NCBI GenBank assembly: GCA_951812645.1
Contig: CATOSM010000001.1
Location: 63,560-103,559 of the forward strand
Length of the DNA stretch: 40,000 bases
Source of the DNA: an uncultured Candidatus Nitrosopumilus sp.
GTDB lineage: Archaea; Thermoproteota; Nitrososphaeria; Nitrososphaerales; Nitrosopumilaceae
Reading direction: 5' to 3'
A program made the translations under genes and the position numbers. This document shows, piece by piece, positions 9,752-40,000 of the stretch (the first letter of the stretch is position 1; each line of letters starts with the position of its first letter). The notes beneath the pieces were generated by a model. That model did no database searches, was not told the origin of the DNA, and saw only the letters and a list, made by a program, of their open reading frames with translations.

Positions 9752-11050
9752 ATGGCAGATAAACCACACTTGAACCTGATTGTTACAGGACATATTGATA
9801 ATGGAAAATCAACTACTATGGGTCATTTTTTGATGGATCTTGGGGTTGTAGATGAAAGAACAATTGCTGCTCACGGAGCAGAATCCGAAAAGACCGGAAA
9901 AGGTGATACTTTCAAGTATGCTTGGGTTATGGATAACATTAAAGACGAAAGAGAGAGGGGTATTACAATCGATCTTGCTTTCCAGAAATTTGAGTCTCCA
10001 AAGTACTTCTTTACTTTGATTGACGCCCCTGGTCACAGGGACTTTATTAAAAACATGATTACTGGTGCTTCTGAAGCAGATGCGGCCATTCTAGTACTTT
10101 CCGCAAAAGAAGGTGAAACCGATACCGCAATTGCAGCAGGTGGACAGGCAAGAGAGCATGCATTCTTGCTAAAAACACTTGGTGTGGGCCAACTAATCAT
10201 CGCAATCAACAAAATGGATGCAGTCGAATACAAAGAAGATGCATTCAATGCAGCCAAAGCAAAAGGCGAAGGCCTGGCAAAATCTGTAGGTTACAAATTA
10301 GAAAACGTACCAATCATTCCAGTTTCTGGATGGAAAGGTGACAACTTGGTAAAGAAAACCGAGAACATGCCTTGGTACAAAGGTAAGACCTTGCTTGAAG
10401 CATTTGATGACTTTACCGTCACTGAAAAACCCGTCGGTAAACCACTGCGTGTTCCAATTCAAGACGTTTACACTATCACCGGTGTTGGAACTGTCCCGGT
10501 AGGCAGAGTTGAGACGGGTGTAATGAAAGCGGGAGACAAAATTGTTGTAATGCCTTCAGGCGCACCCGGTGAAATCAAATCCATTGAAACCCACCATACC
10601 GAAATGCCATCTGCAGAAGCAGGTGACAACATTGGCTTCAACCTAAGGGGTGTTGAAAAGAAGGATATCAAGAGAGGGGATGTTCTTGGCAGTCCTGATG
10701 CACCTCCAAACGTTGCAAAAGAATTCAAAGCACAAATCATTGTAATTCACCATCCAACAGCAATTGCTCCTGGCTACACACCTGTAATGCACGCACACAC
10801 CACTCAAGTTGCAGCAACTGTTACCGAGTTCCTCCAAAAGATCAACCCGGCAACTGGTGCAGTTGAGGAAGAAAATCCAAAATTCCTTAAAGTAGGTGAT
10901 TCGGCAATTGTCAAGATTAGACCTGTGAGACCGACCTGCATTGAAACCTTCCAGGAATTCCCTGAAATGGGTAGATTCGCCCTTAGGGATATGGGTGCAA
11001 CCATCGCAGCAGGCATCGTCAAGGAAATTACCGAAGAGTACAAACCATAG
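9752..11050 (+). CDS. tuf: translation elongation factor 1-alpha
   Basis: GTPase motifs GHIDNGKST, DAPGHRDF and NKMD in 432 aa, followed by S10 as in the conserved archaeal arrangement. Confidence 0.97.
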   Translation: MADKPHLNLIVTGHIDNGKSTTMGHFLMDLGVVDERTIAAHGAESEKTGKGDTFKYAWVMDNIKDERERGITIDLAFQKFESPKYFFTLIDAPGHRDFIKNMITGASEADAAILVLSAKEGETDTAIAAGGQAREHAFLLKTLGVGQLIIAINKMDAVEYKEDAFNAAKAKGEGLAKSVGYKLENVPIIPVSGWKGDNLVKKTENMPWYKGKTLLEAFDDFTVTEKPVGKPLRVPIQDVYTITGVGTVPVGRVETGVMKAGDKIVVMPSGAPGEIKSIETHHTEMPSAEAGDNIGFNLRGVEKKDIKRGDVLGSPDAPPNVAKEFKAQIIVIHHPTAIAPGYTPVMHAHTTQVAATVTEFLQKINPATGAVEEENPKFLKVGDSAIVKIRPVRPTCIETFQEFPEMGRFALRDMGATIAAGIVKEITEEYKP

Positions 11051-14287: not shown

Positions 14288-15161
14288 CAACTCATCTTAA
14301 AACCCTGCAATACATCAAAAATGACGCAATGCTAACCAGCCCGGGATAATTTCCCGCGTTTCCTTTACATCTTATTCCTGTTCTGTGAAACCCGTTTTTC
14401 AGCCATGCAAAGAACCTCTCCACTACAAACCTTGTCCTGTTGTAACTGTCCTTGCCTGCATCATCTGCCGTCCTGCCGTTTTTTCCAAAGGGAATGCACG
14501 GAATGACGTTTCTTGACCTTGCATGACTGCGGATTGGTTTTGAATCGTATCCCCTGTCTGCATAGACTGAAACCATCTGTTCCATCATGGAATCATCTGC
14601 AAAATCCGAAACTGGTTCCATCACGTCTGCAAATTTCGTACTGTCGTGAATGTCTGCAGGGCTCATTACAATTGATACTGGCAAGCCGGTACCATCCACT
14701 GCAACATGCAATTTCGTGCCCGTGACCCTCTTGAATCCGTCAAATCCGATCACGTTGCCCCTTTTTTGGCGGCAACTGACGATGAATCAATCGATATTTT
14801 TTGCAGGCTGGTTTTTCCCTGTCTGTGTGCGGATTTGATTGCACGTCCCAAAATCTTTTTCCATATGCCAAACCCCTGCCATCTTCTTGGCCTTGGATTG
14901 GCAGCTGAGTCATCACCGCATGTTTTTGGCATCTCACTTCACCTGCATCCGGAAACCAACACGCAGATGATTCCATTTAAAACCGTTTGGTCATTGCTTC
15001 TTGGGCGTCCTGTGGCGGCAGGTTTTGGCAGCAACGGCTCTATCATATCCCATTGTCTGTCTGTTATCTCGGTGAATTTCATGTACAGTTTGGAAACTAA
15101 CAGTCCATGGATCCAAATGATCATCAAATATTGTCCAAATGGTTAGTTTTAAGACGAGTTG
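14288..15161 (-). mobile_element. IS5-family insertion sequence, copy 2 (874 bp, inactivated)
   Basis: Terminal repeats CAACTCATCTTAAAACC (14288-) and AGTTTTAAGACGAGTTG (-15161). It is flanked by direct TTA repeats at 14285-14287 and 15162-15164 and is homologous to copy 1 throughout. Confidence 0.85.
14292..15127 (-). pseudogene. IS5-family transposase with an in-frame TGA
   Basis: The N-terminal frame reads ..VLVSGCR-TGA-SEMPK.., whereas copy 1 has TTGCRWADMP. This is TGG to TGA at 14939-14941. The C-terminal DDE part (14292..14753) is still open. Confidence 0.8.
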
Positions 15162-22360: not shown

Positions 22361-22690
22361 ATGATTGGAATTACTGCGCAAACGATTCAGCATCAGCATC
22401 AGGATTGGTTGGCAAAACTGCAATTATGAGAAATACTGTTTGACGAACAGGGATGGAATTTGAGATGTGGTAAACGCAAGACAAATTACAAACCGTTCTC
22501 AAACACACAATTTGAGAAAACCAACATTGATCATTTAAAATGGTCGGTTATAATCAAACTCTTTGATCTTGGGATTGGTGCAAGGCATACAGAAAGAGAA
22601 ATTGATGTTGGCTATCCTGCCGCACTGCATTCTTGTGATGTGATGGAATTCTCGACATTAGAAGAGCACTCCAAAACATATGAATGCTCT
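22361..22690 (+). pseudogene. IS1595/ISXO2-like transposase N-terminal fragment
   Basis: ..LRCGKRKTNYKPFSNTQFEKTNIDHLKWSVIIKLFDLGIGARHTEREIDVGYPAA.. fits the Zn-ribbon plus HTH N-terminus of IS1595-type transposases. It has an upstream stop or frameshift and no catalytic domain. Confidence 0.35.
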
Positions 22691-23030
22691 AAAGGACCCG
22701 ATTGGGTTGAGGGTGGTCGTATTTTGGAGGGAATCTTTCTCCAAATTCCCTTTTGCCACAGTCCTGAGAATCTAAGACGCTACGTAGGTTTGGAACCTTG
22801 CTTGTCTGACATGCCTGCCCATCTGTATCTCGTACCAACACAGACAGGATTACGTTGGTTGTACTTCTGTCATCATATCCTAGACGCCTTGTTCTGGCAG
22901 TTGTGGCTCGATTGCGTTCCATTGTATGCCTGGCATTTTATGAATCACGAAGAATGTATCTGTGCCGTCATTGTCAGATCCAGCTTATCACAAATAACTT
23001 ACAAAATGATCGGTTTTAGGATGAGATGAA
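22690..23030 (-). mobile_element. IS5-family copy 3, truncated (about the first 340 bp only)
   Basis: 23004-23030 is the exact reverse complement (27/27) of copy 1 bases 13100-13126 (CTCATCCTAAAACCGATCATTTTGTAA). The minus-strand frame gives a degenerate ..ATTARTRRLGYDDRSTTNVILSVLV.. versus GRPRCNDRNTINGILFVLT in copy 1. Homology is lost near 22690. Confidence 0.7.
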
Positions 23031-23078: not shown

Positions 23079-24758
23079 GTGGGAGACATAATGAGTTTGA
23101 GCAGGGAACCTGATCTTATACCAGTCAGAATGTTTACGCAGTTTGCATATTGCAAGCGTCTGTCATACATGGAGTGGGTGCAAGGGGAGTTTGCACACAA
23201 TGCGGAGGTGGTAGAGGGCAAGTACCTTCACAGGAACGTAGACATCACATCTGGAAACAAAAAACTGGCAGATGGAGGCGAGCATGAATCCATACATGCA
23301 AGGTCTGTAATGGTATCAGATGCATCTCTGGGCTTGGTGGCAAAGGCAGACCTGCTTGAGATACGCGGAAACCATGTAACGCCTGTAGAGTACAAGAGAG
23401 GCAAGGCCCCGGACATACCTGATGGTGCATATGAGGATCACATTATACAGCTATGCTCCCAAGCCATGCTCCTGCGTGCAAACGGATACCAATGCGATAC
23501 CGGAATCATATACTACATATCATCAAGGCAACGCATAGAGATCACAATAGATGAAAATCTAATCGCAAAGACTTCCAAACTGCTCATACAGATGAAAGAC
23601 ATGATGAGACAAGGTGTGATTCCTCCTCCTTTGGTAGACAGTCCCAAGTGTCCACGCTGTTCGCTTGTAGGCATTTGCATGCCGGATGAGACAAATCTAC
23701 TTTCAGACAGAAATTCAAACGTACGAAAAGATCAAGTGCGAAGAATGTATCCGATAAGAAGCGATGCAATTCCAGTCTACGTTCAGGAACAGGGAACAAG
23801 GATCACATTATCTGGAGAGTGCATTAACATAAAAACAAAGGAAGGGCAAACAAAAGCGATCAGGATCATGGATATTTCGGAGATCACAGTATTTGGAAAT
23901 GTACAGATCACCACAAATGTAATACGCAAAATGTGCGAACATGGAATTCCAATATGCTATATGAGCTATGGCGGATGGTTTGAGGGAATCACCTCTGGTG
24001 CATCAAGTAAGAACATAGATTTGAGGATTCAGCAATACAAGGCACACTTGGAAAAATCTTCATCCATGAACATAGCGCGCCGTATTGTCTGGGGAAAGAT
24101 AAAAAACAGCATGACAATGCTGAGAAGAAATCACAAGGATGCGCCGGTATCTGCAATGGGGGAGATGGACAGGATTGCGGCAAAGGTAGGCAGTGTAAGG
24201 GGGTATGATGCACTGCTAGGGTTAGAGGGTATGGCGGCACGGATATACTTTTCGGAATTTTCCGGCATGATAAAAAACAATCCTGAAAAATTCGACTTTA
24301 CACAGAGAAACAGAAGGCCGCCAAAGGATCCGATAAATGCAATAATTTCGTTTCTATACTCCATGCTTACTAGGCAGGCAGTGACGATTGCAACCGCTGT
24401 GGGATTTGATCCGTATCTTGGATTTTTACACATGCCAAAATACGGCAAGCCTGCGCTTGCACTTGACATGATAGAGGAATTTCGATCAATCATTGCAGAT
24501 TCTACATGCATCACACTGATTAACAATGGCCAGATAACAAAAAACGATGTCATTGTCACCGACTTTGGCACTAGTCTGACCGGGACAGGGAGGCGCAAGG
24601 TAATTGAAGCGTATGAAAGGAGGATGGATTCTACAGTCACTCACCGCATTTTGGGCTATTCTGCAAGCTATAGGAGGATAATGGAGACCCAGATGAGGCT
24701 GCTTTCAAGGCATCTTCTGCATGAGATACCAGAATATCCGCCGTTTAGGACAAGATGA
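23079..24758 (+). CDS. cas4-cas1: Cas4-Cas1 fusion protein
   Basis: The N-terminal Cas4 domain has the first Cys (FAYCKRL), the PD-(D/E)xK motif (ADLLEI...VEYKRGK), QLCSQAMLL and CPRCSLVGIC (C-x2-C-x5-C). The C-terminal Cas1 part has LLGLEGMAARIYF, NAIISFLYSML and GFLHMPKYGKPALALDMIEEFR. The alternative start ATG 23091 fits the promoter better. Confidence 0.9.
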   Translation: MGDIMSLSREPDLIPVRMFTQFAYCKRLSYMEWVQGEFAHNAEVVEGKYLHRNVDITSGNKKLADGGEHESIHARSVMVSDASLGLVAKADLLEIRGNHVTPVEYKRGKAPDIPDGAYEDHIIQLCSQAMLLRANGYQCDTGIIYYISSRQRIEITIDENLIAKTSKLLIQMKDMMRQGVIPPPLVDSPKCPRCSLVGICMPDETNLLSDRNSNVRKDQVRRMYPIRSDAIPVYVQEQGTRITLSGECINIKTKEGQTKAIRIMDISEITVFGNVQITTNVIRKMCEHGIPICYMSYGGWFEGITSGASSKNIDLRIQQYKAHLEKSSSMNIARRIVWGKIKNSMTMLRRNHKDAPVSAMGEMDRIAAKVGSVRGYDALLGLEGMAARIYFSEFSGMIKNNPEKFDFTQRNRRPPKDPINAIISFLYSMLTRQAVTIATAVGFDPYLGFLHMPKYGKPALALDMIEEFRSIIADSTCITLINNGQITKNDVIVTDFGTSLTGTGRRKVIEAYERRMDSTVTHRILGYSASYRRIMETQMRLLSRHLLHEIPEYPPFRTR

Positions 24759-24765
24759 TGCCGTG

Positions 24766-25056
24766 AGAAATCAGTACATGGTGTGTTATGATATAACAGA
24801 CTCAAAGCGATTGCACCAAACGTACAAGACAATGAGGGGCTATGGTGAGCGTGTACAATATTCTGTGTTTTCATGCCGCCTAAGCTTAAAAGAACTAATA
24901 TACATGAAAGAAGATCTTGGCAACATACTTAATCATGAGGAAGACAGAGTCATGATAATTGATATGGGTCCTGTAGGAGCAAACACAGACAAGAAGACAA
25001 CCACCATAGGCATACCCATGGAATCAAAAACGGAGGAACCATCAGTTGTGATATGA
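24766..25056 (+). CDS. cas2: Cas2
   Basis: ..YMVCYDITDSKRLHQTYKTMRGYGERVQYSVFSCRLS...DRVMIIDMG is a typical Cas2 ferredoxin-fold signature. The start is GTG 24766 or ATG 24778. The ATG 24721 used by the ORF track overlaps cas1. Confidence 0.85.
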   Translation, partial: RNQYMVCYDITDSKRLHQTYKTMRGYGERVQYSVFSCRLSLKELIYMKEDLGNILNHEEDRVMIIDMGPVGANTDKKTTTIGIPMESKTEEPSVVI

Positions 25057-25233: not shown

Positions 25234-28200
25234 ATTTCCGTAACGAAAAAGTTACGGCCCCATTGAAGCGATGCCTCCTCTAACAGTGCCTTACTTCGGT
25301 CTATGTATTTCCGTAACGAAAAAGTTACGGCCCCATTGAAGCATCAAACATCATGAGCCACTCCTGAATTTCATTCGGAATCATTTCCGTAACGAAAAAG
25401 TTACGGCCCCATTGAAGCGGAAACAGATACTGTCGCAGCGATGGCGTCTCCAACCTATTTCCGTAACGAAAAAGTTACGGCCCCATTGAAGCTATCCGCA
25501 TATCTGCATGCCATCGCTATCTCAATTGATTTCCGTAACGAAAAAGTTACGGCCCCATTGAAGCACACATACGATAACCCTAAAAATAAAAGATTCGGAT
25601 ATTTCCGTAACGAAAAAGTTACGGCCCCATTGAAGCACCGGCTCGTTCCTTTCAACTATCCAACCGCTGGCATTTCCGTAACGAAAAAGTTACGGCCCCA
25701 TTGAAGCATGCCGTCACCTCCGCCGTCACGTCATATTCTATGTTGCCAATTTCCGTAACGAAAAAGTTACGGCCCCATTGAAGCAAAAAAATATCACTGC
25801 AGAACCTTTTGAAGATTCTAATCACATTTCCGTAACGAAAAAGTTACGGCCCCATTGAAGCATGTAGTAACACTGGTCGTAGTCAATCATGTCGTAATTT
25901 CCGTAACGAAAAAGTTACGGCCCCATTGAAGCGTGAGGGTAATCTGTTCATCAAACATCATCAGCCATATTTCCGTAACGAAAAAGTTACGGCCCCATTG
26001 AAGCGGTAGATGGGGTCGTAGTTATCTGCGTATTTGTCCGCATTTCCGTAACGAAAAAGTTACGGCCCCATTGAAGCGTCGGAGTCGCAAAATCCGCGGA
26101 TACCGCGGACGCATTTCCGTAACGAAAAAGTTACGGCCCCATTGAAGCGGTTCCGCGATACAGCGGGAGAGCCATTCTGGCCCGAGATTTCCGTAACGAA
26201 AAAGTTACGGCCCCATTGAAGCGACGCCCCCGTTCAGGTGGGAATCACGATTAACAGAAATTTCCGTAACGAAAAAGTTACGGCCCCATTGAAGCCTGCC
26301 TTGTTGCTCTCGTTGTTTACCCATTTGGCTGGATTTCCGTAACGAAAAAGTTACGGCCCCATTGAAGCGTCGCGGAATTGAAAAATCGCGGGGAATCCGA
26401 CTGGTCGAATTTCCGTAACGAAAAAGTTACGGCCCCATTGAAGCGATGAACAAATTACCCTCACAAAGCATGACTTTAAGAGTGATTTCCGTAACGAAAA
26501 AGTTACGGCCCCATTGAAGCTATTTTGCCAGTTCCTGTAATCGTGATTGGTCCGAATTATTTCCGTAACGAAAAAGTTACGGCCCCATTGAAGCGGCATT
26601 CCGCAACATGTCTATGGCGAAAATGACCTCATTTCCGTAACGAAAAAGTTACGGCCCCATTGAAGCTTGTATGCCTCGTCCTCTGTCATCAAGATTGCCG
26701 GGATTTCCGTAACGAAAAAGTTACGGCCCCATTGAAGCTTAGCTTCGGCCGTTGCCTGTGATGCGGTATACTGACGATTTCCGTAACGAAAAAGTTACGG
26801 CCCCATTGAAGCTGCACAACTAGAAAGTTCGAAACCTCGCTCCAGCAAATTTCCGTAACGAAAAAGTTACGGCCCCATTGAAGCGCCAGTGCTGCTGTGC
26901 TGAATGTGTAGGTGTCCTTCAAATTTCCGTAACGAAAAAGTTACGGCCCCATTGAAGCTGTACTCGCGTATCGGCATCTGTGCCCTGATATGCCTCATTT
27001 CCGTAACGAAAAAGTTACGGCCCCATTGAAGCTCGAAAATCTACATACGCGTGCAGGGGCCGAGTTCATGGATTTCCGTAACGAAAAAGTTACGGCCCCA
27101 TTGAAGCATTTGAAGCAGTACAGGTGATACGAGTCGGCACGAATTTCCGTAACGAAAAAGTTACGGCCCCATTGAAGCTTGGCAACTTGTACCTTATTTG
27201 CGTCTTGCCCCGGTACATTTCCGTAACGAAAAAGTTACGGCCCCATTGAAGCCTTCGTTTCTCAATCACTTCTGGCCTTGAGATGTAATTTCCGTAACGA
27301 AAAAGTTACGGCCCCATTGAAGCTCGTATCCGTTTTGCTTGGCAAACACGCCAACCGGGTCATTTCCGTAACGAAAAAGTTACGGCCCCATTGAAGCAAA
27401 AAACTTGTTCCGAAAGCGTCGAGCATGTACCTCTAATTTCCGTAACGAAAAAGTTACGGCCCCATTGAAGCTTCTTACTGTAATATATACGATGAGTCTT
27501 GCGTAAAATTTCCGTAACGAAAAAGTTACGGCCCCATTGAAGCATGTGAGAAAGGTGTCAGACACTCCGGGGAATCCGACCGATTTCCGTAACGAAAAAG
27601 TTACGGCCCCATTGAAGCTGCGTTGCCCGATTGTCTTGGTCGTCGAGGTCGTGACATTTCCGTAACGAAAAAGTTACGGCCCCATTGAAGCATTTTTTAT
27701 CTCGATTCTCATCGGTGTCCGTGCTGCAAATTTCCGTAACGAAAAAGTTACGGCCCCATTGAAGCGGCGTGCCCCAGCATGTCTATGGCGAAAATGACCT
27801 ATTTCCGTAACGAAAAAGTTACGGCCCCATTGAAGCTTATGGAGTAATTACAGTTACATTGAGCATTTAAGGATTTCCGTAACGAAAAAGTTACGGCCCC
27901 ATTGAAGCATCGGCATCTGTGCCCTGATATGTCGCATGTATGCCTTGTAATTTCCGTAACGAAAAAGTTACGGCCCCATTGAAGCAACGCACTGACACTG
28001 AGTATCAGCAAGGCAGCACCATCAAATTTCCGTAACGAAAAAGTTACGGCCCCATTGAAGCGTCACGTCCAGAAGAATCCAGCGTCTCGTTGAGAAGATT
28101 TCCGTAACGAAAAAGTTACGGCCCCATTGAAGCTATCTGGACCCTTCTATGTATCCTGACTGTGAGGTGATTTCCGTAACGAAAAAGTTACGGCCCCATT

Positions 28201-35609: not shown

Positions 35610-38600
35610 ATGGTTGAACTTAATCAGCAACAGATGCAGGCTGCACTACATACGGACGGACCGCTGCAGGTAGTTGCAGGACCAGGCAGCGGAAAGACGC
35701 TTGTGCTTACCGAAAAAATCAAAAATCTTGTCAAGGCGGGAATTGAGCCAAAGTCCATTTTGTGCATGACTTTTACAGAAAAGGCGGCAGGCGAGATGAA
35801 TCGCCGTCTGAAGAGATCAGAAATACTTGATGTAAAAGTCAGCACGTTTCACTCCTTTGCAAAGGAGATTCTCGAAGACAATTTTATGGAGTCTGGTCTG
35901 AGCAGGGATGCAAAGATTTTCAAGAAGATATCCCAGATGGTATGGTGCGTTAAAAACACAGACCGGTTCGGCTTTAACCCTGACTATCTCATGATCAAAA
36001 GCAACCATATACAGACATACACGATGGTTCTTAGGGCCATCGGCTTCTTTAAGGAGGAGCAAATAAGTCCGGGTGAGCTTGGGGAATACGTCCAGAAAAG
36101 CATGAAAATGCTAGAAAGGTCAGGTCAGGGCGACAAAGAAGCAAAAGAACAGTTAAAGTCAATCCACAGACTGCGTGAGTTCAACAAAGTCTATGCTGCA
36201 TACGAAGAGTATCGGGAGGAAAAGGGCCTGATTGACTTTGATGATATGGTAATCAAGGCAATAGGGATACTTGAAAAGGACGAGGTGATTCTGCAGGAAT
36301 ATCTTGACAGGTTCAAGTACATATTGGTCGACGAGTTCCAAGACAACAACTTTTCACAGCTAACCCTCATCAAGATTCTGGGCAAGGGAGGCAACGTTAC
36401 GGTGGTAGGGGACGATGATCAGTGCATTATGAAATTCCAGGGTGCGTTTTTTGGAATATTTAGGGACTTTCAGAATAGTTTTCCGGATTTCAAAAAGATC
36501 GAGATCACCAGAAACTATCGAAGCACAAGAAACATCACAAGACTTGCAGGCCAGATTCTAGATCAGGTTCAGGACAGAGAGCCAAAGTTGCTTACCTCTG
36601 AAGAAAGGGATGGCAAGCCCATCCAGGTGGTCACCGTCAAGACTGACAGGGGCCAGATGGAGTTTGTTGCAAAGACAATACGATCCATGCTGGGCAGGCA
36701 ATTGGGTAGATCTGACGGGTCGACATCGCCCCTCACTTACAAGGACATTGCAATCCTGTCAAGAACAAACGCAGAGGGTCAAAAGTTTGCAAACACGCTG
36801 AGGTCACTTGGGATTCCTACTGCATTTGTAGGTGAGACGGACATATTTGCCAACAGGGCAATTTTGGATGTTGCGGCCTTCCTAAAGATTGCAGGTTCGC
36901 CTGCAACCTCGGGTGTGGAGGTTTACAGGCTGCTAAGAAGGCACGGGATATCTGAGCAGAACATAGCAGTGCTTACAGGCGCCGCACACAAAAAGGCAAG
37001 GCATGTCTATGACGGACAGGCTGACTTTGTACTGGACACCGTCAGGCAGTACATGGATTTCAGGATAACCCAAAAGACAGAGATAAGGGAGCTGATCAAG
37101 CAGATTGACAGGGTAAGGGACATTGCAGGACGGTACACCACAAGCCAGACGGTCTACGAAACGATATTTGAGATCTCAGGAGTATACAAAAAGGCCATCA
37201 GATCAGAAGAGCCATATGATAAAAAGAACGTCCTGCTGCTCAACAAGTTCTACGAGATTGCCCAAGAGTTTCAGGACGCCAACCCTGCAAGCTCGGTGTC
37301 CGAGTTTGTAGAGTACCTGTCAATCGTTGAAAGATTTGAGGTGGAGATAGAGGATGACGCATCAGAGGACACCGTAAACGTCCTGACGATGCACAAAAGC
37401 AAGGGAAAGGAGTTTCCAATCGTATTTGTTACGGACCTGGCAGACGGCAGGTTTCCCGGATTGTGGAGGGAATCTGCCTTTAGCATACCGGTGGAACTGA
37501 TGAGCAACAAATCCAGGGACCCGGACTCCAAGACACTGCACACAAACGACGAAAGGCGGCTGTTCTATGTTGCAGTGACCAGGGCGATGGACGAACTGTA
37601 TCTGCTCTATCCAAAGAGGTACTCAGGCAATGTAAATGAGAAGCAGCCATCGCAGTTTCTCTGCGAGCTGGACTATGAGAACAACCCCCTAATTAAGACC
37701 GTAGAGTTTGAGGAGTCGGAGACATTTGGCACAGGGTCCGAAGACGCGCTTCAGAGAAAGAAAGAGTCTCTTCAGATGGCAGCTGCAGGCGCAATCGGCC
37801 AGGGACACCTTGCCACGGCAGTGCACAGAATCGTAGAGCTGTCAAGAATCAGGTACTGCGAGGACCACGGAAATCTTTCAGGCTTTGATCCGACTGCCAT
37901 TCTGAATGTCGACGTTGAGGAGCTGGACTTGTCATCGGACGTCATCGAAAAAAGGCCGCCGCTAATTGACATCGAATCGTTTACGGCATCTGCAAGTAGC
38001 ATAAGGGCATATAATGACTGTCCGCTAAAGTTCAAGTTCCAGAAGATACTGCGCGTTCCACAGCCACCAAGTGCCGTACTTCATCTCGGAACGGTGATTC
38101 ATTCTGCGGTGGATGAGATTGCAAAGAAGAAAGCAAAGGGAAAGACAGTTTCCCGGGAGAAGGCACTTGAGATAGTAAAAGAAAGGTGGATATTTCGCAC
38201 CTATCCCAATCATACGGCAGAGGACAATGCAATGGACCGCGCCAAGAAGATGATTGGCACGTATGTGGAATGGGAAACGTCAAGGCACAACACGATGGTA
38301 GAGACAGAGATGCCATTTGAGGTAAGAATCGGAAACGTGGTGTTTACCGGAAGAATAGACAGGTTGGAGGTGAACCCCAAGGGAGACTTTGAAGTGGTCG
38401 ACTTTAAGACAGGCTCATCGTCAATAGCAAGAAAGGATGCGGCCTCAGACATACAGTTAAACATCTATGCCGTGGCAGTCAGGAATCTAAAGGGAAAGCT
38501 TCCGGCAAAGGCCACGCTGTTCTATGTTGAGAAGGACAAGACAGTAGAGTACGATGTGACTGACGAATCAGTAAGGGATGCAGTTGCCGCAATAGAGGGC

Positions 38601-38708
38601 ACAGTCCGGGACATCCTAAGGGAGAACTTTGAACCCACGCCAAGTTACAAGGCGTGCATGTTGTGCCCGTATAAGGGCATATGCGATGCCAAGATTGCAA
38701 AGGTGTGA
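35610..38708 (+). CDS. SF1 UvrD/PcrA-type helicase fused to a C-terminal Cas4/AddB-like PD-(D/E)xK Fe-S nuclease
   Basis: Helicase motifs: AGPGSGKT (I), CMTFTEKAAGEM (Ia), YILVDEFQDNN (II), VVGDDDQCIM (III), RNYRS (IV), TMHKSKGKEFPIVF (V) and FYVAVTRAMDELYL (VI). Nuclease motifs: YNDCPLKF, GRIDRLEV, EVVDFKTG, IQLNIYAVA and CMLCPYKGIC. Confidence 0.85.
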   Translation: MVELNQQQMQAALHTDGPLQVVAGPGSGKTLVLTEKIKNLVKAGIEPKSILCMTFTEKAAGEMNRRLKRSEILDVKVSTFHSFAKEILEDNFMESGLSRDAKIFKKISQMVWCVKNTDRFGFNPDYLMIKSNHIQTYTMVLRAIGFFKEEQISPGELGEYVQKSMKMLERSGQGDKEAKEQLKSIHRLREFNKVYAAYEEYREEKGLIDFDDMVIKAIGILEKDEVILQEYLDRFKYILVDEFQDNNFSQLTLIKILGKGGNVTVVGDDDQCIMKFQGAFFGIFRDFQNSFPDFKKIEITRNYRSTRNITRLAGQILDQVQDREPKLLTSEERDGKPIQVVTVKTDRGQMEFVAKTIRSMLGRQLGRSDGSTSPLTYKDIAILSRTNAEGQKFANTLRSLGIPTAFVGETDIFANRAILDVAAFLKIAGSPATSGVEVYRLLRRHGISEQNIAVLTGAAHKKARHVYDGQADFVLDTVRQYMDFRITQKTEIRELIKQIDRVRDIAGRYTTSQTVYETIFEISGVYKKAIRSEEPYDKKNVLLLNKFYEIAQEFQDANPASSVSEFVEYLSIVERFEVEIEDDASEDTVNVLTMHKSKGKEFPIVFVTDLADGRFPGLWRESAFSIPVELMSNKSRDPDSKTLHTNDERRLFYVAVTRAMDELYLLYPKRYSGNVNEKQPSQFLCELDYENNPLIKTVEFEESETFGTGSEDALQRKKESLQMAAAGAIGQGHLATAVHRIVELSRIRYCEDHGNLSGFDPTAILNVDVEELDLSSDVIEKRPPLIDIESFTASASSIRAYNDCPLKFKFQKILRVPQPPSAVLHLGTVIHSAVDEIAKKKAKGKTVSREKALEIVKERWIFRTYPNHTAEDNAMDRAKKMIGTYVEWETSRHNTMVETEMPFEVRIGNVVFTGRIDRLEVNPKGDFEVVDFKTGSSSIARKDAASDIQLNIYAVAVRNLKGKLPAKATLFYVEKDKTVEYDVTDESVRDAVAAIEGTVRDILRENFEPTPSYKACMLCPYKGICDAKIAKV

Positions 38709-38804: not shown

Positions 38805-39687
38805 CAACTCATCCCAATGCTCTCCAATGCATCATTATAAATGCAAGATACGCAAATCCAGGATAGTTCTCGCATTTCTTTTCATACCTTGCTACAGTTC
38901 TTCCCAACCAGCATCTGAGCCAGGCAAGGAACCTTTCAGCAACAAATCCTGTCTTGTTGCAGACATTTTGCTGATTCTCTGATACAATGAATTTAGAATT
39001 TTTCCTGCAGGAAATGCAACAATTGATTCCTTTGACCTCTCAGATAGTTTCTAATGTATGCGGCATCATAACCCTTGTCTGCATGGGCTGCAGCAATTTC
39101 TTTGATTGTACTGACATCTGCAGGTTCTGAAATTTTTTCATGGTACCGATGAGTTTTGTACTGTCATGAATGTTTGCAGGACTGCACGCAATTAGGATTG
39201 TCAAACCGTTGCTCTCTACTGCGACATGAATCTTTGTACCCCTGATCTTCCTGAACCCGTAACATTTTGTCATGCTGCACCTTTTTTGGCAGCAATTGAT
39301 GAGGAATCAACGGATATTTTTTTCAGGTTGATTTTGTTTTTCTTGTGTGCAGATTTTATCAGTTCGGACATAATCTTCTTTCAGACTCCTCTTTTCTGCA
39401 GATCCTGGAATCGCCTGCCTGTTGATGATTTGGAACCGTGCATTGCAGGCCGGTCAATCCACCTGCAACCGGCAACCAGCAACCAGTACAAAGATGATTG
39501 CATTGATTGTCGTACAGCCGTCACTTCCTGGCCTTCAGCTGTTGCGGGTTTTGGCAGATGCGGTACAATGATACTCCATCGTGAATCTGTCGGTTCTTGA
39601 AATTTGATGAAAGCATGCTGTGTCTGGGAATGGATAGATACGGGTGATCATCAGAAATTGCCTGAATGGTCGGTTTTGGGATCAGTT
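38805..39687 (-). mobile_element. IS5-family copy 4 (883 bp, decayed transposase)
   Basis: The ends are CAACTCATCCCAATGC (38805-) and CGGTTTTGGGATCAGTTCG (-39687). The minus strand reads ..LPKPATAEGQ..LLVAGCRWIDRP..QKRGV-TGA-KKI.. The DDE part is broken by at least 2 further frameshifts. The C-terminus ..KTGFVAERFLAW..HWRALG-stop is still recognisable. Confidence 0.75.
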
Positions 39688-39737: not shown

Positions 39738-40000
39738 ATGGGCAAGTATGAAGGTACGTTTGAGGAATTTTTTAAAAAAGCCACAGGTTTTGCCCCATAT
39801 CCCTATCAGCAGAAATTATCAGGGTTGGACAGCATTCCGGACATTCTCAATATCCCTACAGGTGCGGGAAAAACAGAAGCTACAGTTTTAGGATTATACT
39901 TGTGGAGAATTTTAAATTCCGATGAGAAAGTACGCGAGAATACATCCCGAAGACTTGTGTACTGCCTGCCAATGCGCGTATTGGTAGAACAGACCGTAAA
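39738..40000 (+). CDS. cas3: Cas3-type SF2 helicase, N-terminal 87 codons (runs off the window)
   Basis: My own translation: MGKYEGTFEEFFKKATGFAPYPYQQKLSGLDSIPDILNIPTGAGKTEATVLGLYLWRIL....RRLVYCLPMRVLVEQTV. It shows the F-PYPYQ motif, Walker A PTGAGKT and RRLVY..P.R.LV.Q. The helicase begins at the very N-terminus with no leading HD domain. Confidence 0.7.
   Translation, partial: MGKYEGTFEEFFKKATGFAPYPYQQKLSGLDSIPDILNIPTGAGKTEATVLGLYLWRILNSDEKVRENTSRRLVYCLPMRVLVEQTV

What the first reader, a model, noticed from the sequence alone, without database searches (positions are those of the whole stretch)
35610..38708. Single-chain UvrD helicase + Cas4/AddB-like Fe-S nuclease between the array trailer and cas3
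**What the sequence shows**
- A 1032-aa ORF starts 112 bp after the last perfect repeat.
- It has a complete SF1A UvrD/PcrA motif set.
- It also has a C-terminal PD-(D/E)xK domain with a 4-Cys cluster (DCPLKF ... CMLCPYKGIC, C-x2-C-x5-C) and a QxxxY motif (IQLNIYA). The Cas4 domain fused to Cas1 12 kb upstream has the same geometry (YCKRL ... CPRCSLVGIC, QLCSQA).
- The locus therefore carries two Cas4-like nucleases.
- This gene shares the GC-rich composition of the cas genes and sits inside the same IS-bracketed cassette.

**Established background:** in bacteria, RecBCD/AddAB helicase-nucleases generate the DNA fragments that feed Cas1-Cas2. Archaea lack RecBCD/AddAB.

**Inference**
- This could be a dedicated AddAB-like prespacer generator or an accessory effector of a type I system. 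I do not know of such an association being described as a defined CRISPR accessory module.
- Alternatively it could be an independent nuclease-helicase defence gene (Nhi/Gabija-like logic) riding in the same island.
Basis: partly seen in the sequence, partly recalled or inferred. Interest (0 to 1): 0.72.

Follow-up and report, generated by a model that had tools for sequence, protein, structure and literature searches.

The report
UvrD helicase–nuclease beside CRISPR locus
The gene is a real, intact DNA helicase fused to an iron-sulfur nuclease, but it belongs to an already described family that mostly sits next to restriction-like defence genes, so its place beside this CRISPR locus looks like shared residence in a defence island rather than a new CRISPR component.

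Summary
ORF 35610-38708 (+) encodes a 1032-aa protein with a complete UvrD/PcrA SF1A core and a C-terminal PD-(D/E)xK nuclease carrying four invariant cysteines. It starts 112 bp after the last of 140 identical repeats.

- The nuclease domain scores as PDDEXK_1 (140 bits) and resembles the AdnA nuclease, not Cas4 (41 bits).
- The UvrD-Cas4-like fusion family was described in 2017 as not CRISPR-associated.
- Only 4 surveyed relatives lie within 10 kb of CRISPR-Cas. None of the 80 metagenome loci does.
- 17-19 loci instead carry an unknown 400-aa gene, an SNF2 helicase and a NOV_C protein, usually with a DNA methyltransferase.
- Type I-G loci with the identical repeat exist without the gene.
- Cas4-Cas1 identities are incongruent with helicase identities.
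- The gene keeps its own conserved TATA-like element whatever lies upstream.

Best reading: an autonomous end-resecting helicase-nuclease of a defence island in a Nitrosopumilaceae archaeon. Local co-option by the type I-G system remains possible (about 0.15).

The parts
35610..38708 (+). Gene for the 1032-aa UvrD-type SF1A helicase fused to a C-terminal Fe-S PD-(D/E)xK nuclease.
   Evidence: ORF list and translation. Pfam and NCBIfam hits. AlphaFold2 model with mean pLDDT 83.7, whose best PDB fold matches are AddA, UvrD/PcrA and AdnA/AdnB.
35610..37685 (+). Helicase core, aa 1-692, with all UvrD/PcrA motifs.
   Evidence: UvrD-helicase and UvrD_C hits. Motif positions. PcrA 1pjr E 7e-65.
37986..38687 (+). 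Nuclease domain, aa 793-1026: PDDEXK_1 with D917, D931, K933, QxxxY 949-953 and Cys804/1016/1019/1025.
   Evidence: PDDEXK_1 140 bits against Cas_Cas4 41 bits. Residues invariant in alignments A1 and A2. Profile search of the PDB ranks the AdnA nuclease at E 2e-18, AdnB at 2e-7 and Cas4 4ic1 at 2e-6.
35581..35589 (+). TATA-like element TTTTAGTAT, 21-29 nt upstream of the ATG; probably the gene's own promoter.
   Evidence: The same element sits at the same distance in L001, L002 (ATTTAGTAT) and L003. What lies upstream differs: an array, a ParB_N gene or an alanyl-tRNA synthetase gene. Promoter function is inferred, not shown.
25234..35497 (+). CRISPR array: 140 identical 36-nt repeats and 139 spacers. 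Its trailer end abuts the helicase gene.
23079..24758 (+). cas4-cas1 fusion gene (type I-G adaptation module).
   Evidence: Cas_Cas1 E 7e-90 and Cas_Cas4 E 3e-19.
24721..25056 (+). cas2.
   Evidence: CRISPR_Cas2 E 4e-19.
38812..39611 (-). Degenerate IS5-like copy (DUF4096 + DDE_Tnp_1) inserted between the helicase gene and cas3.
   Evidence: tblastn with IS proteins. This IS is absent from the homologous helicase-cas3 intergenic region of L002.
39738..40000 (+). 5' end of cas3 (type I-G); it runs off the window.
   Evidence: DEAD-box hit. 94% aa identity to the start of L002 cas3, which is followed by a putative cas8u (no Pfam hit; named from its position), cas7u (GSU0053) and a cas5/6u homologue (related to GSU0054-type Cas5/6u of L006).

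Best explanation
**What it is.** The gene encodes an autonomous, catalytically intact helicase-nuclease of the already described UvrD-Cas4-like (pfam12705) fusion family.

**How it most likely works (inferred).**
- The N-terminal SF1A motor should bind a DNA end or nick and translocate 3'->5' on one strand.
- The C-terminal Fe-S PD-(D/E)xK domain is most like the AdnA/AddB type that handles the displaced 5' strand. It should cleave that strand.
- The enzyme would therefore resect or shred linear DNA.

**Where it sits.** In Nitrosopumilaceae-type archaea the gene is a defence-island resident. Its usual partners are an unknown 400-aa protein, an SNF2/ResIII helicase, a NOV_C protein and a DNA methyltransferase.

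**Relation to CRISPR.** In the window's lineage that place is taken by a type I-G CRISPR-Cas locus. The gene is transcribed from its own promoter and is not a cas gene. Any help it gives to CRISPR, such as supplying degradation fragments to Cas4-Cas1-Cas2 or clearing cut targets, would be incidental, in the way RecBCD helps bacterial systems.

**Shown versus inferred.** Shown: domain content, motif integrity, family membership by architecture, and the distribution of contexts. Inferred: strand polarity, substrate, defence role and promoter function.
For: **Domains and structure**
- Domains and intact motifs.
- The fold model matches AddA, UvrD and AdnAB.
- The nuclease domain is closest to the AdnA Fe-S nuclease. 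In AdnAB that domain takes the 5' strand at the fork (PMC8789073).

**Published description**
- The family is described with restriction-modification contexts and as not CRISPR-associated (PMC5704561).

**Context survey**
- CRISPR or cas genes lie within 10 kb only for the window, L001, L002 and L006. None of the 80 metagenome loci has them.
- 17-19 loci carry the U400-SNF2-NOV_C cassette, with or without a methyltransferase. In L007, L011, L101, L102, L105 and L107 it starts 63-91 bp after the helicase stop on the same strand.
- PADLOC relates the cassette proteins to ZorD, DpdE, DrmD, HmaA, PD-T4-1 and type II methyltransferases.
- In NJ trees the cassette context occurs on deep and shallow branches, while the CRISPR context is confined to one sub-clade that also holds non-CRISPR members L087 and L170.

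**Independence from the cas genes**
- I-G loci with the identical 36-nt repeat lack the gene (L172-L176).
- The L087 genome has an I-G Cas4-Cas1 more than 10 kb from its helicase.
- The helicases of L001 and L002 are 83% identical, but their Cas4-Cas1 proteins only 56%.
- A conserved TATA-like element precedes the gene whatever lies upstream.
- The family is essentially absent from viral contigs.
Against: - Adjacency to I-G CRISPR-Cas recurs in four genomes with three different architectures. The gene follows the array in L001, lies between array and cas3 in the window and L002, and is convergent with cas5/6u in L006. That is more than random placement in 2-3 Mb genomes would give.
- In the window and L002 the gene is internal to the locus and on the same strand as the array and cas3.
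- No biochemical or genetic data exist for any member of the archaeal branch.
- A defence role for the SNF2/NOV_C cassette is itself only predicted.
- The survey is limited to 10-kb flanks, and many contigs are short.
Confidence: 0.62

Rival explanations
1. Lineage-specific CRISPR accessory. In this Nitrosopumilaceae sub-clade the helicase-nuclease has been recruited by the type I-G system. It would resect foreign DNA ends into fragments for Cas4-Cas1-Cas2, replacing RecBCD/AddAB, or help Cas3 degrade targets.
For: - Four CRISPR-adjacent members occur in one part of the tree, in three locus architectures.
- In the window and L002 the gene lies inside the locus, on the same strand, 112 bp after the array.
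- The array shows repeated sampling of the same targets, with nine overlapping or duplicate spacer pairs, so adaptation was active.
- Established background: RecBCD and AddAB products feed Cas1-Cas2 in bacteria, and archaea lack these enzymes (my own knowledge).
Against: - The same sub-clade contains members without CRISPR nearby: L087, whose genome has an I-G system elsewhere, and L170.
- I-G loci with the identical repeat lack the gene.
- Cas4-Cas1 and helicase identities are incongruent.
- The gene has its own conserved promoter-like element.
- No sequence feature distinguishes CRISPR-adjacent from other members; length and invariant residues are the same.
- The three closest CRISPR cases share one ancestor, so there are at most two independent events.
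Confidence: 0.15
2. Housekeeping double-strand-break resection enzyme. The gene would be a single-chain functional analogue of AdnAB/AddAB used for recombinational repair in Nitrososphaeria, with no defence role. Defence genes would merely accumulate beside it.
For: - Architecture and fold match AddA and AdnAB.
- In the top 120 hits each complete-genome-sized contig appears once, consistent with one copy per genome.
- Some members lie among ordinary genes: L088 beside ribosomal and tRNA-synthetase genes, L087 beside transporter genes.
- Its GC content is usually higher than that of adjacent defence genes.
Against: - The position is not syntenic between genomes.
- A tight same-strand link to SNF2, NOV_C and methyltransferase genes holds over deep divergence (36-64% identity to the window protein).
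- Neighbours include SIR2, TIR, MmeI-like R-M and CRISPR-Cas genes.
- Composition often differs from the flanks, for example L009 at 56% against 68% and L012 at 54% against 37%.
- No uvrABC or recombination genes were seen nearby.
- The family is published as defence-linked.
Confidence: 0.18
3. Inactive relic or misannotated ORF. The reading frame would be a decaying gene trapped between an array and an IS.
For: An IS remnant lies directly downstream. The window copy sits on a long branch, 72-74% identical to relatives that are 83% identical to each other.
Against: - The 1032-codon frame is uninterrupted.
- Every helicase and nuclease motif and all four cysteines are conserved.
- The protein has full-length homologues and gives a confident fold model.
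Confidence: 0.03

Closest known systems
UvrD-Cas4-like fusion proteins of the pfam12705 branch (Hudaiberdiev et al. 2017, BMC Evol Biol 17:232, PMC5704561)
   Same: - N-terminal UvrD-like SF1 helicase plus a C-terminal Cas4-like nuclease that scores best with pfam12705.
- Found in bacteria and mesophilic archaea.
- Neighbours include DNA methyltransferases and ResIII-type helicases.
- Otherwise stand-alone or in non-conserved contexts.
- Predicted ancillary defence or recombination role.
   Different: - That study found no CRISPR-associated branch in pfam12705, whereas a small Nitrosopumilaceae sub-clade here sits next to type I-G loci.
- The thaumarchaeal cassette (U400, SNF2, NOV_C and a D12 or N6_N4 methyltransferase) is not identical to the Mod/Res or Dcm-Vsr contexts they describe.
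- Monophyly with their set was not tested.
Mycobacterial AdnAB (AdnA and AdnB subunits; PDB 6ppj, 6ppr, 6ppu, 7sjr, 9np6)
   Same: - Each subunit is a UvrD-like motor followed by a RecB-type nuclease of about 1050 aa.
- AdnA aligns with query residues 213-958.
- The AdnA Fe-S nuclease is the best PDB match of the query's nuclease domain (E 2e-18 with the family profile).
   Different: - AdnAB is an obligate heterodimer encoded by a two-gene operon and induced by DNA damage.
- Here there is one gene and no adjacent paralogue.
- The query combines an intact motor (AdnB-like role) with an AdnA-like Fe-S nuclease in one chain.
- Identity is only about 18-22%.
AddAB and RecBCD helicase-nucleases
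   Same: - SF1A motor plus PD-(D/E)xK nuclease.
- AddA (4cej_A) is the top fold match.
- AddB carries the same kind of Fe-S cluster nuclease.
- Expected activity is DNA end resection.
   Different: - These are multi-subunit enzymes regulated by Chi sites.
- NCBIfam equivalog cut-offs are far from met: AddA 153 against 708 bits, RecB 121 against 696 bits.
- No partner subunit is encoded nearby.
Cas4 (pfam01930 / COG1468 / TIGR00372), including the Cas4 domain of the I-G Cas4-Cas1 fusion in this window
   Same: - PD-(D/E)xK fold with a four-Cys cluster in C...C-x2-C-x5-C geometry and a QxxxY-like motif.
- The TIGR00372 score of 73 bits is above its cut-off of 65.
   Different: - Only 24% identity over 100 aa to the locus's own Cas4 domain.
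- Pfam Cas_Cas4 scores 41 bits against 140 for PDDEXK_1.
- The domain is fused to a helicase, not free or fused to Cas1.
- It is separated from cas1-cas2 by a 10-kb array, and orthologues are mostly not CRISPR-linked.
Gabija GajB and other defence UvrD helicases
   Same: The UvrD-type core gives strong PADLOC hits to GajB models (up to 255 bits).
   Different: - GajB has no nuclease domain and works with GajA, an OLD-family nuclease.
- No GajA-like gene is in the window.
- The hits reflect the shared helicase core only.

Membership tests
UvrD-Cas4-like fusion family (pfam12705 branch, Hudaiberdiev 2017) | N-terminal UvrD-like SF1 helicase domain | tested here: met
   UvrD-helicase E 6e-63 and UvrD_C E 6e-46, with all motifs present.
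UvrD-Cas4-like fusion family (pfam12705 branch, Hudaiberdiev 2017) | C-terminal Cas4-like nuclease whose best profile is pfam12705 (PDDEXK_1) | tested here: met
   PDDEXK_1 140 bits over aa 793-1026, against Cas_Cas4 41 bits.
UvrD-Cas4-like fusion family (pfam12705 branch, Hudaiberdiev 2017) | Monophyly of helicase and nuclease parts with the published fusion proteins | not tested
   The published sequence set was not available. Full-length bacterial matches at 25-29% identity (L013-L016, L018, L065, L072, L078) are compatible but were not placed in a tree.
UvrD-Cas4-like fusion family (pfam12705 branch, Hudaiberdiev 2017) | Defence or R-M-type neighbourhood, or stand-alone; not CRISPR-associated | tested here: met
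   Relatives: 17-19 loci with SNF2/ResIII, NOV_C and a methyltransferase, plus MmeI-like R-M, SIR2 and TIR neighbours. The window copy is one of only four CRISPR-adjacent exceptions.
Cas4 proper (pfam01930 / COG1468) | Best match to the Cas4 profile | tested here: not met
   Cas_Cas4 scores 41 bits against 140 for PDDEXK_1. PDB ranking puts AdnA above AdnB above Cas4. TIGR00372 alone passes its cut-off, 73 against 65 bits.
Cas4 proper (pfam01930 / COG1468) | Encoded in the adaptation operon next to or fused with cas1/cas2, and so across orthologues | tested here: not met
   The gene is separated from cas2 by the 10.3-kb array and has its own promoter-like element. Orthologues are mostly without CRISPR.
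Type I-G CRISPR-Cas gene set | Presence in I-G loci generally | tested here: not met
   L172-L176 have the identical repeat and carry cas4/1, cas2, array, cas7u, cas5/6u, cas3 and a putative cas8u (no Pfam hit), but not this gene. The L087 genome has an I-G Cas4-Cas1 away from its helicase. The region beyond that last gene in L172 was not visible.
AddAB / RecBCD / AdnAB end-resection complexes | SF1A motor plus RecB-type nuclease architecture | tested here: met
AddAB / RecBCD / AdnAB end-resection complexes | Two or three subunits encoded together (paralogous motor-nuclease partner) | tested here: not met
   There is no second UvrD-like or RecB-like gene in the window or next to relatives.
AddAB / RecBCD / AdnAB end-resection complexes | Equivalog-level sequence match | tested here: not met
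   AddA 153 bits against a cut-off of 708; RecB 121 against 696; PcrA 337 against 911.
Gabija (GajA + GajB) | GajA (OLD/TOPRIM nuclease) encoded next to the UvrD-like GajB | tested here: not met
   No such gene appears among the annotated window ORFs. The GajB hits cover the helicase core only.
Nhi-like nuclease-helicase | Match to Nhi models or Nhi architecture | tested here: inconclusive
   The 25 best of 65 PADLOC matches were GajB and RTasHel models. The other 40 matched families were not listed, so an Nhi match cannot be excluded.

The most novel reading that the evidence does not exclude
In one Nitrosopumilaceae sub-clade a UvrD-Fe-S-nuclease of the pfam12705 fusion family has been recruited into type I-G CRISPR-Cas loci. 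There it would act as an archaeal stand-in for RecBCD/AddAB, resecting foreign DNA ends into substrates for Cas4-Cas1-Cas2 or clearing Cas3-nicked targets. That would make it the first helicase-nuclease accessory of a type I adaptation module in archaea.
Probability: 0.12. Interest if true: 0.65.

Novelty: new member of a known kind. Interest (0 to 1): 0.3.

Why it matters
- If the CRISPR link were functional, it would show how archaea that lack RecBCD/AddAB obtain prespacer DNA, which is an open question.
- As the evidence stands, the gene is one more member of a described but never experimentally characterised helicase-nuclease family.
- The more useful result is the survey. In ammonia-oxidising archaea this family marks a defence island. 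It is most often joined to an SNF2/NOV_C/methyltransferase cassette that is itself uncharacterised.
- That gives a concrete multi-gene candidate system and a marker gene for locating defence islands in Nitrososphaeria.

Tried and rejected
- **Genome scan swamped.** The genome-contig scan with the full-length alignment A1 was flooded by generic UvrD helicases, because its patterns were DEFQDNN and AGPGSGKT. Only about six archaeal family loci were useful. I then used the nuclease-domain alignment A2 for the metagenome scan, which was family-specific.
- **Look-ups that found nothing.** No record exists for P0001 or P0032, so the window's wider flanks and the sister of the window clade could not be seen.
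- **Viral contigs.** The scan gave one weak relative only, so I rejected a viral or mobile-element origin.
- **Protospacers.** Two recurrent spacer cores had no exact match in viral contigs.
- **Shared spacers.** No spacers are shared between the window, L001, L002 and L006, so array ancestry could not date the junction.
- **Composition argument.** I rejected the claim that the gene shares the GC content of the cas genes. It is richer in GC than all of them, and EF-1alpha is as GC-rich as cas4/1.
- **Composite transposon.** I rejected an IS-bracketed composite transposon, because L002 has helicase and cas3 contiguous without an IS.
- **Bacterial promoter scan.** I did not use the sigma-70 promoter/terminator scan because the organism is an archaeon. 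I compared upstream regions instead.
- **Literature.** Searches for a described UvrD-type accessory of type I CRISPR systems found only NERD+UvrD with type III systems and UvrD with Cas12a2 variants, which are unrelated to this architecture.


Full report
**The object**

The window comes from an archaeon. It encodes aEF-1alpha at 9752-11050, and that protein falls in a cluster of at least 90% identity with Nitrosopumilus species. The source contig is 1.86 Mb long.

From 23 kb onward the window carries these features:
- A cas4-cas1 fusion (23079-24758) and cas2 (24721-25056).
- A CRISPR array of 140 identical 36-nt repeats, ATTTCCGTAACGAAAAAGTTACGGCCCCATTGAAGC, at 25234-35497, with 139 spacers.
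- The ORF in question, 35610-38708.
- A degenerate IS5-like copy at 38812-39611 on the minus strand.
- The start of cas3 at 39738.

In the relative L002 the homologous cas3 is followed by a putative cas8u (no Pfam hit), cas7u (GSU0053 family) and a cas5/6u homologue. Together with the Cas4-Cas1 fusion this identifies the system as type I-G, formerly I-U. That classification rests on my own knowledge of subtype definitions.

- The ORF is 1032 codons long and starts 112 bp after the last repeat.
- Pfam finds UvrD-helicase, UvrD_C and PDDEXK_1 with E-values from 1e-40 to 6e-63.
- All SF1A motifs are present, as are the nuclease residues D917, D931-x-K933 and Q949xxxY953 and four cysteines (C804, then C1016-x2-C1019-x5-C1025). 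They are invariant across 24 family members that are 40-100% identical.
- An AlphaFold2 model (mean pLDDT 83.7) has AddA, UvrD/PcrA, AdnA/AdnB, AddB and RecB as its best PDB matches.
- The second Cas4-like domain, in Cas4-Cas1, has the same cysteine geometry but is only a remote relative: 24% identity over 100 aa.

Two side claims are weaker.
- The gene is richer in GC (48%) than any cas gene (41-45%), and some host genes reach 43-44%.
- The IS to its right is a secondary insertion, because L002 has the helicase gene and cas3 297 bp apart with no IS between them.

**Which nuclease it resembles**

- The domain scores 140 bits with PDDEXK_1 and 41 bits with Cas_Cas4.
- A profile of the family's C-terminal region ranks PDB chains as follows: AdnA nuclease (E 2e-18, whole domain aligned), AdnB (2e-7), Cas4 SSO0001 (2e-6), and the Geobacter I-G Cas4 (3e-3).
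- In AdnAB, the AdnA nuclease carries the Fe-S subdomain at the fork and receives the unwound 5' strand, while the AdnB motor tracks 3'->5' (PMC8789073).
- The window protein therefore joins an intact motor to an AdnA/AddB-type Fe-S nuclease in one chain. I infer that it resects DNA ends by itself, degrading the 5' strand. That step is inference from homology.

**The family is already described**

Hudaiberdiev et al. 2017 (PMC5704561) report the following:
- The largest branch of pfam12705 consists of Cas4-like nucleases fused to UvrD-like helicases, in bacteria and mesophilic archaea.
- The helicase parts are monophyletic.
- The genes lie next to type III R-M or Dcm-Vsr genes, or stand alone.
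- pfam12705 has no major CRISPR-associated branch.

**Where relatives sit**

The nearest homologues are full-length proteins of 1006-1073 aa from Nitrososphaeria. I collected contexts in three ways: exact look-ups, a genome scan, and a family-specific metagenome scan that returned 80 loci.

CRISPR context:
- CRISPR arrays or I-G cas genes lie within 10 kb only for the window, L001 (74% identity), L002 (72%) and L006 (55%).
- None of the 80 metagenome loci has them, although about 20 of those are 53-65% identical to the window protein.

The dominant context, found by clustering all neighbouring ORFs:
- 17-19 loci carry an unknown 400-aa protein, an SNF2/ResIII helicase of about 650 aa and a NOV_C protein.
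- These usually come with a DNA methyltransferase, either N6_N4 type or D12/Dam type.
- In L007, L011, L101, L102, L105 and L107 the cassette starts 63-91 bp after the helicase stop on the same strand. A solo Cas4-like gene and an unknown gene lie just upstream in L007 and its closest relatives (L097-L100).
- This link spans members that are 36-64% identical to the window protein.
- PADLOC relates the cassette proteins to ZorD, DpdE and DrmD (SNF2), to PD-T4-1, TmtA and HmaA (NOV_C), and to type II methyltransferases.

Other neighbours are SIR2, TIR and MmeI-like R-M genes. The gene is thus a defence-island resident whose commonest partner is an R-M-like cassette. That agrees with the published description.

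**How special the CRISPR cases are**

In NJ trees the window, L001 and L002 form one clade. With P0032, L087, L170 and L006 they make a group that is sister to the cassette-linked clade.

Within that group two members lack nearby CRISPR:
- L087 has no CRISPR within 10 kb, although its genome encodes an I-G Cas4-Cas1 elsewhere. The evidence is a matching contig length of 2,156,695 bp.
- L170 has none on its 12.9-kb contig.

The three closest cases share the junction between array trailer and helicase, so they count as one event. L006, where the helicase is convergent with cas5/6u, is at most a second.

Conversely, loci L172-L176 carry the identical repeat and a Cas4-Cas1 that is 64% identical to the window's. 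There the array is followed directly by cas7u, cas5/6u, cas3 and a putative cas8u, with no helicase-nuclease.

The modules do not co-evolve:
- The helicases of L001 and L002 are 83% identical, yet their Cas4-Cas1 proteins are only 56% identical.
- The window's Cas4-Cas1 is 85% identical to that of the L002 genome, while the helicases are only 72% identical.
- A 45.5-kb contig appears to combine an L001-like helicase (98%) with a window-like Cas4-Cas1 (84%). This rests on equal contig lengths only and was not verified.

One simple account is recombination between near-identical repeats. It would swap the cas genes and young spacers while leaving the trailer and the helicase gene in place. This is inference.

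**Transcription**

A TATA-like element, TTTTAGTAT, lies 21-29 nt before the ATG (35581-35589). It recurs at the same distance in L001, L002 and L003, whether an array, a ParB_N gene or an alanyl-tRNA synthetase gene lies upstream. This suggests the gene has its own promoter and is not part of a cas operon. Function of the element is not shown.

**Verdict**

The protein is a genuine, intact single-chain helicase-nuclease and a new member of a known family.
- A housekeeping resection role cannot be excluded. It is not exclusive of a defence role, since RecBCD serves both in bacteria.
- A local functional link to the I-G system remains possible, because adjacency recurs in three architectures. 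I give it about 0.15.

Nothing here is categorically new. The most useful by-product is the conserved thaumarchaeal gene set around this family.

Noticed in passing
L007:8428-18933; also L011, L097-L102, L105, L107, and with variations L003, L004, L090-L096, L124: A conserved same-strand gene set occurs in Nitrosopumilaceae-type contigs. In order: a solo Cas4-like nuclease (PF01930, 249 aa), an unknown 275-aa protein, the UvrD/PDDEXK_1 helicase-nuclease, an unknown protein of about 400 aa, an SNF2/ResIII helicase, a NOV_C protein, an unknown 241-aa protein, and a D12 (Dam-like) methyltransferase. In another clade the methyltransferase is N6_N4 type. No PADLOC system model covers the set as a whole. 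It looks like an uncharacterised R-M-like or DISARM-like system.
   Followed up: partly
L119:4538-5296 (-) and 10 further loci (L089, L101, L111, L114, L118, L121, L122, L129, L132, L148): A putative regulator is a recurrent neighbour of the helicase-nuclease, mainly in the clade about 39% identical to the window protein. It has an HFX_2341_N / Csa3_N (CARF-like) domain and a winged-helix domain. No CRISPR is nearby.
   Followed up: partly
window:25234-35497: All 140 repeats are identical, including the last one, so there is no degenerate trailer repeat. Nine spacer pairs overlap or are duplicates; for example the spacers at 33495 and 34743 are identical, and those at 31745 and 31892 share 31 nt. 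This suggests repeated or primed sampling of the same targets. One 'spacer' is 60 nt long (35328-35387). No spacers are shared with L001, L002 or L006.
   Followed up: partly
L006:21024-23108 (-), L001:3301-9836, window repeat: The repeat hairpin CCGTAAC/GTTACGG shows a compensatory double change in L006 (CCGCAAC/GTTGCGG). In L001 only loop positions change. This supports a conserved stem in the crRNA repeat.
   Followed up: no
L172:10001-21671 and L173-L176: A type I-G locus with exactly the same repeat as the window sits directly after the ribosomal protein operon. Its gene order is different: cas4/1, cas2, array, cas7u, cas5/6u, cas3, then a putative cas8u (no Pfam hit). Effector-gene order therefore varies among close I-G relatives in these archaea.
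   Followed up: partly
window:13161-13990 (+), 14298-15124 (-), 38812-39611 (-), 22654-22860 (-): The window holds three copies and one fragment of an IS5-like element (DUF4096 + DDE_Tnp_1), 43-55% identical to each other at protein level. The fragment lies inside the unannotated ORF 22460-23029, just upstream of cas4/1.
   Followed up: partly
window:35610-38708 compared with L001 and L002: The window's helicase-nuclease sits on a long branch. It is 72-74% identical to L001 and L002, which are 83% identical to each other, and 63% identical to L003, against 69-70% for L001 and L002. It also has raised GC (48% against 43%). All catalytic residues are kept.
   Followed up: no
L002:8892-9782 (-) and L170:7156-7965 (+): A ParB_N-domain gene lies immediately upstream of the helicase-nuclease in two members of the window's wider clade. 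ParB-like genes are reported as markers of thaumarchaeal integrated elements (PMC6563490).
   Followed up: no
window:34942-35571 (-): A 209-aa ORF on the minus strand overlaps the last CRISPR repeats and the gap before the helicase gene. It has no Pfam hit and is almost certainly spurious.
   Followed up: partly
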